This document shows, one piece after another, positions 52,562 through 55,081 of a stretch of DNA of 64,000 nt. A program made the translations under genes and the position numbers. Position 1 is the first letter of the stretch. Every line of letters begins with the position of its first letter. A model generated the notes under the pieces. It was not told where the DNA came from. It was given only the letters and a program-made list of their open reading frames with translations, and did no database searches. Source of the stretch: a phage; sequence record PX393108.1. One strand, given 5' to 3'.

Positions 52562-52855
52562 TTATTCCTTAAAATGTGCTTTCAACATCTGATACAAGGA
52601 CCACGCATGTTCATTATTTTCAATAGTAACTTTCATTACCGGGAATTCTGTGAAATCTTCTATCTGTTCTTGCTCTTCAGAAGCTTGGTATGGATTTTCC
52701 ACTTCATCAAAGAACTCAGCTTCGTTAGTAGAGAGCCAGATAAAGTTTTCGTCAAGGATATCAGCGCCGGCACAACGTTTGAGTACACCTGTGGATGTCA
52801 CAATTTTAGTAGGACGACTGAGATGGTCAACATCTAAAATTTTAAAAGGTTCCAT
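52562..52855 (-). CDS. hypothetical acidic protein (97 aa)
   Basis: ORF track. Confidence 0.5.
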
Positions 52856-52965
52856 ACCTAAACGTCGTGCGTAGATTCCGTTATCAGTATGGTCTTTAAT
52901 AAAAGCTTCTTAAGCTTGTTTATTTTTAAATTGATACCATTTATTAACTTCAAATCTAATAGCCA

Positions 52966-53181
52966 TTAATAAATTTCCTTCCAGTAAGTTGTACCGTCTT
53001 CAGTGATTTCACGGAATACACCATAAATCGGTTGTTTATCACCAACCTTTTCATACACATAAACTGAAGTCAAGTGAGTAAACTTAACGGTATGTTCTTT
53101 TTGAACTACTACCAAATCTGGATCAAATAATACATCTTCAAATTCGTCATTAGTGCAATTCTGAACAATTTTACGTTTCAT
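52966..53181 (-). CDS. hypothetical protein (71 aa)
   Basis: ORF track. Confidence 0.5.
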   Translation of the reverse strand: MKRKIVQNCTNDEFEDVLFDPDLVVVQKEHTVKFTHLTSVYVYEKVGDKQPIYGVFREITEDGTTYWKEIY

Positions 53182-53194
53182 TACAATATCCTCA

Positions 53195-53476
53195 TTAATT
53201 AAACAGTGGAGCGATGCGTTTCAGAAGAGTAGCAGCACCTTTGGCAAATTTTACATCATGAAAAACAGTTTCTTCTTCCGTTACAACACGAACTTTAATG
53301 TTTTCACAATCCCAATTTTTACGAACAATCTTCAAAAGCTGCAGTAAATCTTTACATTCAGCAATATCGATAACACATCCACGAGAATCTTCCATTATCG
53401 CACGATAACCATAAGCCATACCATAATCGTTGAAAGATTGTTCGATGATAATTAAGTTTTCCATTTTATTCTCCAA
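53195..53476 (-). CDS. hypothetical protein (93 aa)
   Basis: ORF track. Confidence 0.5.
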   Translation of the reverse strand: MENKMENLIIIEQSFNDYGMAYGYRAIMEDSRGCVIDIAECKDLLQLLKIVRKNWDCENIKVRVVTEEETVFHDVKFAKGAATLLKRIAPLFN

Positions 53477-53561
53477 GTTGTTTTCTGTATCAGTAGTTGA
53501 TATTGATATAATACCATAATCAACTACTGATGTATATAGTTTTATGAAAAAAATTTAAACT

Positions 53562-54059
53562 TTATGCACAGCGAGCTTTGCTATAATGTTTAATCCAACT
53601 TTCAGGAATGACTTTGTATGTTCCTAAAAATACCGCGTTGTACAGCTTAACACCATCTTCTACCCACTGATCGGTAATGTACGCGCACATAGCACGAGTA
53701 CGGCGTTTTTGAACAACCCCTTCCTCATCTTCAGTAAATTCGAATTCATAAGGAGCAACGAACTTAATAGCTTGACCGAGTTTCCACTTAAAGTCTACAC
53801 CTACATGTGAAGTATCAATCGTTTCAATTCCTTTAGCAGGAACAGCTTTCAAAAACGCAGACTCAAGAAATTTCGCACGAACATAGCCAAACTGAGGTTT
53901 AGACTTTCCATCTTTAGGAATGATACGCACTTTTACTTCAGAATCTTCATCTTTAACGCCATGTTTAAGCTGAATGCTTACAATTTCGACCAATTTTCCT
54001 GCTGCTTTAGAGCGGGATTTATCAGATACACGAGCTAATTCACCAATATTAATAATCAT
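53562..54059 (-). CDS. motB: MotB-like protein
   Basis: 165 aa; position upstream of dexA; the C-terminal segment YITDQWVEDGVKLYNAVFLGTYKVIPESW is paralogous to the next ORF. Assignment by synteny and size only. Confidence 0.55.
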   Translation of the reverse strand: MIINIGELARVSDKSRSKAAGKLVEIVSIQLKHGVKDEDSEVKVRIIPKDGKSKPQFGYVRAKFLESAFLKAVPAKGIETIDTSHVGVDFKWKLGQAIKFVAPYEFEFTEDEEGVVQKRRTRAMCAYITDQWVEDGVKLYNAVFLGTYKVIPESWIKHYSKARCA

Positions 54060-54103
54060 AGTTATTTCTCACTTGTTAAAAAGATTTTATACTCCGCGGG
54101 ACC

Positions 54104-54133
54104 ATTATACTCTGGTCCCAAGAGTTTGTAAAC
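54104..54133 (-). promoter_or_regulatory. T4 early-type promoter (-35 GTTTAC, -10 TATAAT) upstream of motB
   Basis: Reverse complement of gtaaac 54128-54133 and attata 54104-54109; the -10 lies inside an inverted repeat (gggaccA..Tggtccc). Confidence 0.5.
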
Positions 54134-54567
54134 TAGCTTACACGAACATTAATCACTGCGCTGCGAGGAACGACAGAATACTCTCCAGCATGAACTACAT
54201 TAAGAAGTTCAACGCCATCTTCAATCCACTGGTCAGTTACCCAACCGCCAATCGGATTCGCGAATGGACGACGAATATAAACTGCCTTACACAACAAATC
54301 AGTCGGGTCTTCAGGTTTTTCAATTTCTGTCAATAGATTAAAATCTTCTTCATAGATGATGAATGATGATACCCTTCCATAATAGTTTCTAATTTCCATG
54401 TACACTGTACCAATGAGAATTCCGCTATTAACACTAATAACAGTAAAAGGATATCCGCCAGTTGTACCAAGAAGTTCCCAAAACTTGCTATCAGTCGTAT
54501 TCGACATTGTCTGAAAATCAATTTCAGACGGTTTTTTCATTTGATACGTAGTATTAATTTTAATCAT
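54133..54567 (-). CDS. MotB-related paralogue (144 aa)
   Basis: C-terminal WVTDQWIEDGVELLNVVHAGEYSVVPRSA aligns with the C-terminus of the adjacent MotB-like ORF. Confidence 0.5.
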   Translation of the reverse strand: MIKINTTYQMKKPSEIDFQTMSNTTDSKFWELLGTTGGYPFTVISVNSGILIGTVYMEIRNYYGRVSSFIIYEEDFNLLTEIEKPEDPTDLLCKAVYIRRPFANPIGGWVTDQWIEDGVELLNVVHAGEYSVVPRSAVINVRVS

Positions 54568-54577
54568 AATTTTCTCT

Positions 54578-55081
54578 TTAGTCTAAGGTAATAAAGCCTT
54601 TTAATTCAGCATGCGATTTGCGGAACATTACTTGGTGCCCGCCAATGATAACTTCATCTTCAGGAACTTCGTATACAGCAAGATAAAATCCTTTAGAAGC
54701 TAATTCTTCACGCTCTTCTCGTGTGAACCATCTCATCATATCATATTCACTAGCGAAAGCAAAATGATAAAGAGCTATAAACCATCCTGGAATATAGTGA
54801 TCTACGCCTACATATTCCTCTTTCTCAAATTTAGTATTAATTGCTATATTAGCATTTTTAACTAATAATTTGTCTTCGCGCGGAAGAGGAATTCTTTTGT
54901 TATCATTACTATGATGTGTAAAATTAGGTCTATCATAACCTACGTGTAATAACCACTCTTCGCTCCATGAATCTATTATACTCCTGTATGGCGTTATTTG
55001 AACACAAAGATTTCGACGTATTGTTATAGCATCTTCACAATTAAGAATACTAAACGATGATTCAACACGATAAATTTTCAT
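54578..55081 (-). CDS. hypothetical protein (167 aa)
   Basis: ORF track. Confidence 0.55.
   Translation of the reverse strand: MKIYRVESSFSILNCEDAITIRRNLCVQITPYRSIIDSWSEEWLLHVGYDRPNFTHHSNDNKRIPLPREDKLLVKNANIAINTKFEKEEYVGVDHYIPGWFIALYHFAFASEYDMMRWFTREEREELASKGFYLAVYEVPEDEVIIGGHQVMFRKSHAELKGFITLD

What the first reader, a model, noticed from the sequence alone, without database searches (positions are those of the whole stretch)
53562..54567. Adjacent paralogous motB-like genes
The 165-aa and 144-aa ORFs share a conserved C-terminal segment (YITDQWVEDGVKLYNAVFLGTYKVIPESW versus WVTDQWIEDGVELLNVVHAGEYSVVPRSA) with unrelated N-termini. A consensus early promoter with an inverted repeat around its -10 sits between them. 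This looks like a duplicated DNA-binding module with swapped N-terminal domains.
Basis: seen in the sequence. Interest (0 to 1): 0.45.

Follow-up and report, generated by a model that had tools for sequence, protein, structure and literature searches.

The report
T4-type motB and motB.1 paralogs
The two neighbouring genes are the known early genes motB and motB.1 of a T4-like phage, which share a small C-terminal domain behind different N-terminal domains; this was published in 2021, so the finding is real but ordinary.

Summary
The window is a Tequatrovirus (T4-like) genome. The 165-aa ORF is MotB, with a full-length Pfam PF17613 match (E=2e-99). The 144-aa ORF is MotB.1 (PHROG 2333, E=8e-69).

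Their C-terminal similarity is highly significant: BLASTP E=3e-10, Smith-Waterman z=15 with 0 of 3000 shuffles reaching it, and profile-profile probability 98.5% (E=1.6e-15). The N-termini show no detectable similarity. A near-consensus T4 early promoter (TTTACA-17-TATAAT) lies between the genes, and a conserved hairpin spans its -10 element.

Side findings:
- The T4 reference genome alone carries an extra base that truncates MotB.1 to 119 aa inside the shared domain.
- The RB69 reference motB.1 is split in a similar way.

Novelty: already known. Interest: low.

The parts
53562..54059 (-). motB gene (165 aa plus stop), the ortholog of T4 MotB
   Evidence: Pfam PF17613 matches residues 1-163, E=2.2e-99. 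PHROG 1671 E=5e-76. It occupies the same position as T4 motB, between motB.1 and cef.
53856..54059 (-). MotB N-terminal domain (residues 1-68), a basic KOW/SH3-like barrel
   Evidence: The AF2 model shows five strands with a short helical turn between strands 4 and 5. Net charge is +5, pI 9.8, family median pI 10.0. The distant relative P0255 passes Pfam KOW (24.8 bits, cut-off 22.3) at the equivalent position. HHpred-based KOW assignment in PMC7827196.
53583..53780 (-). MotB copy of the shared C-terminal module (residues 94-159), including a MotB-specific variable insertion at about residues 104-121
   Evidence: hhalign aligns MotB 93-159 with MotB.1 91-141. Joint alignment A5. AF2 strands 97-112, 115-134, 137-144, 147-152, 156-159, pLDDT 84-95. 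Net charge -1, family median pI 4.8.
54133..54567 (-). motB.1 gene (144 aa plus stop)
   Evidence: PHROG 2333 E=7.6e-69. 100% identical to the phage JoYop protein and 97% identical to T4 MotB.1. It occupies the position of T4 motB.1.
54316..54567 (-). MotB.1 N-terminal domain (residues 1-84), an acidic beta-barrel with one helix, described in the literature as LSm-like
   Evidence: AF2 model: E7-10, H23-36, E41-48, E54-60, E66-72, E79-82, pLDDT about 80-88. No Pfam hit. pI 4.7. LSm-like assignment in PMC12152347.
54145..54297 (-). MotB.1 copy of the shared C-terminal module (residues 91-141)
   Evidence: hhalign. Alignment A5 has invariant L, F, D, W, E, G, L, N, V, V across both families. AF2 strands 95-98, 106-116, 119-126, 129-134, 138-140. 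Net charge -2, family median pI 4.6.
54104..54132 (-). Early-type promoter for motB: -35 TTTACA (54132-54127), 17-nt spacer, -10 TATAAT (54109-54104). The motB.1 stop codon directly abuts the -35.
   Evidence: 11 of 12 consensus positions, the best site in the scanned 2.5 kb. AGTTTACA fits the T4 early -35 consensus GTTTAC quoted in PMC1524935. It is conserved in T4 and other Tevenvirinae. Activity was not tested.
54091..54125 (-). Hairpin enclosing the -10 element (13 pairs with one bulge; core arms 54113-54119 and 54098-54104), with GGAG forming part of its 3' arm
   Evidence: Perfect 7-nt arms. RNA fold -19.7 to -20.5 kcal/mol. It is retained with different stem sequences in 11 intergenic variants, and 2 of 6 consensus pairs show double changes. 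It is the only strong hairpin among 8 consensus-like promoters in the window.
54578..55081 (-). motB.2 (167 aa), the upstream neighbour in the same early gene block; it does not carry the shared module
   Evidence: PHROG 1106 E=3.7e-54 and no Pfam hit. It occupies the position of T4 motB.2.

Best explanation
The two ORFs are the early genes motB.1 (upstream, 144 aa) and motB (downstream, 165 aa) of a Tequatrovirus (T4-like) phage.

Each encodes a two-domain, all-beta protein. They share one homologous C-terminal small beta-barrel of about 51 residues in MotB.1 and about 66 in MotB. Its signature is (T/S)DQW(V/I)E(D/E)G(V)xLxNxV. The N-terminal domains are different: a basic KOW/SH3-like barrel in MotB and an acidic LSm-like barrel in MotB.1.

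The pair arose by an old tandem duplication followed by N-terminal domain replacement. Both lineages, and their adjacency, are kept across several Tevenvirinae genera. The C-terminal module also occurs with further N-terminal arrangements.

motB has its own T4-type early promoter in the 73-nt spacer. The promoter abuts the motB.1 stop codon, and a conserved hairpin covers its -10 element. Only read-through RNA from motB.1 would contain the whole hairpin.

Function:
- MotB is experimentally a tight, non-specific DNA binder that changes how H-NS sits on DNA (literature).
- I infer that its basic N-terminal domain makes the DNA contact.
- I infer that the acidic, strongly conserved shared C-terminal barrel is a common partner-binding or assembly module rather than the DNA-binding surface. 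MotB.1 would then bring the same module to a different target through its LSm-like domain.

Identity, homology and architecture are shown (about 0.95). The division of labour between domains is inference (about 0.4).
For: Identity:
- The window matches Tequatrovirus genomes at up to 97.3% over this block.
- Gene order is dda, dexA, motB.2, motB.1, motB, cef, as in T4.
- Pfam and PHROG assignments agree.

Homology of the C-terminal module only.

Old duplication and kept adjacency:
- motB.1 lies directly upstream of motB in 15 loci from Tequatrovirus, Dhakavirus and other Tevenvirinae.
- Each lineage has its own signature, KLYN in MotB against ELLNVVH in MotB.1.

Module shuffling. MotB.1-type C-termini occur with:
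- one or two LSm-like domains (144, 180 and about 250 aa forms);
- a MotB-type KOW N-terminus (P0242, P0244, P0249 and others).

Charge: MotB NTD is +5 with pI about 10. The shared CTD has median pI 4.6-4.8 in both families. MotB.1 overall has pI 4.7.

Promoter and hairpin.

MotB biochemistry: PMC6070864, PMC7827196.
Against: - No experiment maps DNA binding to either MotB domain. PMC7827196 states that either could bind.
- SH3-like barrels such as chromo or Sso7d-type domains can bind DNA, and MotB.1 keeps basic residues in the module (IRRPF, PRS).
- The published HHpred analysis called the shared domain an OB fold.
- The alignments behind the models are shallow (27-29 sequences from one phage subfamily).
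- Promoter activity and the transcription start were not measured here.
Confidence: 0.7

Rival explanations
1. The shared C-terminal module is itself the DNA-binding domain (an OB fold, as proposed from HHpred). Both MotB and MotB.1 would then be DNA-binding proteins with different accessory N-termini.
Confidence: 0.25
2. motB.1 is a decaying, non-functional duplicate, and the similarity is a relic.
For: The T4 and RB69 reference records have motB.1 broken by single-base insertions inside the module. T4 motB.1 deletion and amber mutants grow normally (PMC12152347).
Against: Every other T4 isolate in the collection has the intact 143-aa gene. The 143-aa protein is seen on 256 contigs. The module is nearly invariant across MotB.1 homologs from several genera. 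The reference-only differences fit the sequencing artefacts that PMC8573959 suspects in AF158101.
Confidence: 0.04
3. The shared segment results from recent gene conversion between neighbours, or from chance or convergence, rather than an old duplication.
For: The genes are adjacent, which favours conversion. The core match is short.
Against: Chance is excluded. Identity is only 41% in the core. Each lineage keeps its own diagnostic residues across genera, which a recent conversion would erase.
Confidence: 0.01

Closest known systems
T4 MotB (Pfam PF17613 'Modifier of transcription'; PHROG 1671)
   Same: The 165-aa ORF is its ortholog: full-length profile match, same genome position, same two-domain layout.
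   Different: It is 165 rather than 162 aa. The difference lies in the variable insertion of the C-terminal domain (EFEFTEDEEGVVQKRRTR against EFNFIKDDGRVVYTR).
T4 MotB.1 (PHROG 2333; 'Category 2' MotB homologs of Patterson-West et al. 2021, PMC7827196)
   Same: The 144-aa ORF is its ortholog. It is 97% identical over the part present in the T4 reference protein, sits at the same position, and has the same LSm-like N-terminal domain described in PMC12152347.
   Different: The T4 reference protein is only 119 aa because the reference sequence has one extra base. Resequenced T4 encodes 143 aa, like this window.
KOW / SH3-like small beta-barrels (NusG/Spt5 KOW, Tudor, PWWP, chromo domains)
OB fold of eIF5A / cold-shock domains (the published assignment for the MotB C-terminal domain)
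   Same: A five-stranded barrel of similar size, suggested by HHpred (PMC7827196).
GoF and Frd.2 of T4 (LSm-like fold family, PMC12152347)
   Same: They are reported to share the N-terminal barrel type of MotB.1.
   Different: They were not found to carry the MotB-type C-terminal module. No relationship to MotB.1 was tested here.

Membership tests
Pfam PF17613 (motB) | Whole-protein score at or above the 25-bit gathering cut-off | tested here: met
   MotB scores 330.4 bits and MotB.1 scores 32.9 bits.
Pfam PF17613 (motB) | Match along the whole 162-position profile, covering both domains (a MotB ortholog) | tested here: met
   This holds for the 165-aa ORF only, which matches profile positions 1-160. 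The 144-aa ORF matches only positions 118-153, so it is a partial, C-terminal-only relative and not a MotB ortholog.
T4 MotB ortholog | Conserved position in the early block dexA, motB.2, motB.1, motB, cef | tested here: met
T4 MotB function | Tight non-specific DNA binding and an altered H-NS footprint | not testable with these tools
   Known only from experiments on T4 MotB (PMC6070864, PMC7827196).
MotB.1 (PHROG 2333) | Full-length profile match and orthologous position | tested here: met
   E=7.6e-69 over residues 1-143. 97% identity to T4 MotB.1. Position upstream of motB.
LSm-like fold family (GoF / MotB.1 / Frd.2) | N-terminal bent five-stranded antiparallel sheet | tested here: inconclusive
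   The AF2 model has five strands plus one helix in residues 7-82 at pLDDT about 80-88. No domain-level structural comparison with GoF or Hfq was possible.
OB fold (cold-shock-like) for the shared module | Five-stranded barrel with the helix between strands 3 and 4, and OB-fold structural neighbours | tested here: inconclusive
T4 early promoter | GTTTAC-type -35, 17-nt spacer, TATAAT -10, oriented toward an early gene | tested here: met
   AGTTTACA-17-TATAAT on the minus strand, 45 nt upstream of the motB ATG. The consensus is quoted in PMC1524935. Activity is not testable here.
Intrinsic terminator | GC-rich hairpin followed at once by a run of U | tested here: not met
   The scan reports no terminator-like site at 54091-54125. 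The stem is followed by AUAAAAUC before the U run.

The most novel reading that the evidence does not exclude
Three readings remain open.
1. The module shared by MotB and MotB.1 is not the OB-fold DNA binder assumed in the literature. It would be an acidic SH3/Tudor-like barrel that docks both proteins onto a common host or phage partner.
2. The true function of MotB.1 is still untested, because published assays appear to have used the 119-aa product of a reference-sequence error, which lacks half of this module.
3. The conserved hairpin over the motB -10 element is a regulatory device that distinguishes read-through transcripts from promoter-initiated ones.
Probability: 0.3. Interest if true: 0.4.

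Novelty: already known. Interest (0 to 1): 0.15.

Why it matters
As stated, the finding adds nothing new. The MotB/MotB.1 relationship and its duplication origin are in print.

The practical value lies in the side results:
- Anyone working on T4 MotB.1 from NC_000866 is using a gene model cut inside its conserved domain.
- The '29-aa peptide' class of MotB relatives in RB69 is the tail of a split motB.1.
- The domain that carries MotB's DNA-binding activity is still unmapped, and composition points away from the shared module.

These points affect how experiments on this family of phage proteins that act on the host nucleoid should be designed.

Tried and rejected
- A profile of the shared module was searched against all PDB sequences. 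Only chance hits appeared (E=1.5, integrin-linked kinase).
- The same profile was searched against 1.84 billion representative proteins. It gave 35 hits, 24 of them at E<=1e-10, and the plausible ones are small two-domain proteins of the same family. The long proteins that match in 4 to 7 stretches (P0254, P0257, P0259-P0261, P0263, P0265) are repeat or low-complexity matches, judged from the three I read (P0254, P0257, P0265), and were rejected.
- I looked for similarity between the shared module and either N-terminal domain, which would indicate an internal duplication. There was none.
- I looked for promoter annotation in AF158101 and NC_000866. Only CDS features are listed there.
- I considered the hairpin as an intrinsic terminator. 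This was rejected because no U run adjoins the stem.
- The NAR 2021 paper on DNA compaction by MotB is not in the searchable library, so any domain-level data in it were not seen.

Full report
**What is there.** The window belongs to a Tequatrovirus (T4-like phage). The 2.2-kb block around the finding matches 578 phage records, and the best match is Escherichia phage JoYop at 97.3%. All genes here run on the minus strand in the T4 order: dda, two small ORFs, dexA, a 167-aa ORF, the 144-aa ORF, the 165-aa ORF, a 93-aa ORF, and cef.
- The 165-aa ORF (53562-54059) matches Pfam PF17613 'motB' over its whole length (E=2.2e-99) and PHROG 1671 (E=5e-76). It is MotB.
- The 144-aa ORF (54133-54567) matches PHROG 2333 (E=7.6e-69). 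It is 100% identical to a JoYop protein and 97% identical to T4 MotB.1, and it sits where T4 has motB.1.
- The 167-aa ORF is motB.2.

**Check of the observation.** The quoted peptides are present, and the similarity is not chance.
- BLASTP gives 16/39 identities, E=3e-10.
- The Smith-Waterman score is 98 against 28 +/- 4.5 for 3000 shuffles, none of which reaches it.
- Pfam motB hits MotB.1 residues 103-138 above its gathering cut-off.
- A comparison of family profiles (29 MotB and 27 MotB.1 sequences) gives probability 98.5%, E=1.6e-15, aligning MotB 93-159 with MotB.1 91-141.
- A joint alignment shows ten invariant positions across both families, and a 13-17-residue insertion that only MotB has.
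- The N-terminal halves are unrelated in sequence by pairwise and by profile comparison.

**Promoter and inverted repeat.**
- In the 73-nt spacer, TTTACA-17 nt-TATAAT (54132-54104, minus strand) is the best sigma-70-type site in the scanned 2.5 kb. With its preceding G it fits the T4 early -35 consensus GTTTAC quoted in PMC1524935.
- The -35 directly abuts the motB.1 stop codon.
- Perfect 7-nt arms GGGACCA/TGGTCCC flank the -10.
- As RNA the region folds into a 13-pair hairpin of about -20 kcal/mol.
- I extracted the motB.1-motB spacer from 15 further loci, which gave 11 distinct sequences including the window's. The promoter position and a hairpin over the -10 persist while the stem sequence changes, for example GAGAGCCAT/ATGGCTCTC in Dhakavirus and GGGGTCA/TGACCCC in another lineage. 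Two of six consensus pairs show changes on both sides. The sequences are related and few, so this is suggestive rather than proof.
- Of eight consensus-like promoters in the window, only this one has a strong hairpin.
- It is not a canonical terminator, because no U run adjoins the stem.
- Transcripts that start at this promoter would begin inside the 3' arm. Only read-through RNA from motB.1 would carry the full hairpin (inference). Its role is unexplained.

**Anatomy of the proteins.** AlphaFold2 models (mean pLDDT 80.2 and 84.4) show two beta-domains in each protein.
- MotB: residues 1-67, then a disordered linker at 70-83, then residues 97-159.
- MotB.1: residues 1-82, which include one helix, then residues 95-140.
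- In the shared domain of both models, a short helical turn lies between strands 4 and 5. From my own knowledge of these folds, that is the SH3-like pattern and not the OB pattern.
- Foldseek against viral models returns MotB/MotB.1 relatives and a KOW-domain phage protein.
- These searches used whole models and give no query ranges, so the fold of the shared domain by itself remains unsettled.
- The literature assigns KOW to the MotB N-terminus and an OB fold to its C-terminus from HHpred (PMC7827196), and an LSm-like fold to the MotB.1 N-terminus (PMC12152347).
- A distant family member, P0255, passes Pfam KOW at its N-terminus.

**Distribution and evolution.**
- The module is confined to a small family. 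A profile search of 1.84 billion representative proteins found 35 hits, and the credible ones are all small two-domain proteins.
- The tandem motB.1-motB arrangement is kept in Tequatrovirus, Dhakavirus and other Tevenvirinae loci.
- Mosigvirus and RB3-type phages add a third, 139-aa MotB-like gene.
- MotB.1-type C-termini are joined to one LSm-like domain (144 aa), to extended or doubled N-terminal regions (about 180 and 250 aa), or to a MotB-type KOW domain (P0242, P0244, P0249 and others).
- This supports duplication followed by N-terminal domain exchange.

**How it probably works.**
- MotB is known to bind DNA tightly and non-specifically, to co-purify with H-NS and StpA, to change the H-NS footprint, and to de-repress H-NS-silenced host genes when overproduced (PMC6070864, PMC7827196). 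The papers I could read map no domain for this.
- MotB's N-terminal domain is basic: +5, pI 9.8, family median 10.0.
- The shared domain is acidic in both families, with median pI 4.8 and 4.6. MotB.1 is acidic overall, with pI 4.7.
- The invariant core TDQWxEDG carries three acidic residues.
- I therefore infer that the KOW-like domain contacts DNA and that the shared barrel is a common partner-binding or assembly module. MotB.1 would couple it to a different N-terminal specificity.
- This is inference at about 0.4 confidence. The rival, that the shared module binds DNA, keeps about 0.25.

**Comparison with what is known.**
- Patterson-West et al. 2021 state that MotB and MotB.1 share a conserved C-terminal domain with different N-terminal regions, and that one gene probably arose by duplication of the other.
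- Nolan et al. 2006 had already noted a motB paralog next to motB in RB69.
- The finding is therefore already known.

**Side results.**
1. Only the T4 reference records (AF158101.6 and NC_000866.4) have GGATTGGAAG where every other T4 isolate, RB55, RB59 and this window have GGATTGAAG.
   - The extra base ends the reference MotB.1 at 119 aa (…WVTDQWIGRWR), inside the shared module.
   - Resequenced T4 records annotate 143 aa.
   - This fits the general warning about artefacts in AF158101 (PMC8573959).
   - PMC12152347 had motB.1 plasmids made by gene synthesis, cites NC_000866.4 for its T4 sequences, and reports a 13.8-kDa monomer. It probably studied the truncated form (inference).
2. In the RB69 reference, motB.1 is split by two single-base insertions relative to phage p000v. 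The 29-aa ORF that PMC7827196 lists as a separate category is its C-terminal piece.
3. goF in this window has an in-frame stop at codon 19.
4. The 93-aa ORF between motB and cef survives in T4 only as a deletion remnant. A strong 13-pair hairpin (z=-5.0) follows motB in both phages.

**Verdict.** The novelty class is 'already known', and interest is low.

Noticed in passing
L001 about 3305 (NC_000866.4 about 7304), corresponding to window about 54220: The T4 reference genome alone has one extra base in motB.1 (GGATTGGAAG against GGATTGAAG). This truncates the protein to 119 aa inside the MotB-like module. All other T4 isolates, RB55, RB59 and this window encode 143-144 aa. It is probably a reference sequencing error, and published MotB.1 assays (13.8 kDa protein) seem to have used the truncated form.
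   Followed up: yes
L027 3877-4373 (RB69 NC_004928.1 8376-8872): The RB69 reference motB.1 is split by two single-base insertions relative to Mosigvirus p000v. The annotated 29-aa ORF RB69p012 is the C-terminal end of the shared module (VELLNVVHAGDFSVVPRSAVVNILN), not a separate mini-gene.
   Followed up: partly
window 54091-54125 (minus strand): The hairpin enclosing the motB promoter -10 is conserved across Tevenvirinae genera with different stem sequences, and it is unique among 8 consensus-like promoters in the window. A GGAG motif forms part of its 3' arm here and is present at that position in 9 of 11 variants. Its function is unknown.
   Followed up: partly
window 52910-52912 (minus strand), within 52562-52966: goF carries an in-frame stop at codon 19, where T4 and phage FL23 have Gln. 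Only a 97-aa ORF starting at an internal Met remains. This could be a real nonsense mutation or a sequencing error.
   Followed up: partly
window 53195-53476 and 53489-53531; L001 2484-2653: A 93-aa ORF (PHROG 3720) lies between motB and cef. T4 keeps only a deletion remnant of it, with the same first three and last residues. Just downstream of motB, a 13-pair hairpin (-22 kcal/mol, z=-5.0) encloses a -10-like TGgTATTAT. This is a second hairpin-over-promoter arrangement, and T4 has it too.
   Followed up: partly
L006 2069-2488, L007 2087-2506, L008 2081-2500: Mosigvirus and RB3-type phages carry a third family member, a 139-aa MotB-like gene directly downstream of motB. The copy number of the module therefore varies from 2 to 3 per genome.
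   Followed up: no
P0242, P0244, P0246, P0249, P0251, P0253; P0020, P0028, P0077: Some relatives combine a MotB-type KOW N-terminus with a MotB.1-type C-terminus. A short motif, ID(F/M)D(V/I)xSMY(V/L)xP, recurs either just before the module or at the extreme N-terminus of the 180-aa forms. Its meaning is unknown.
   Followed up: no
window about 53700-53750 (MotB residues 104-121): The MotB-specific insertion within the shared domain is the most variable part of the protein. It accounts for the 3-aa length difference from T4 MotB.
   Followed up: no
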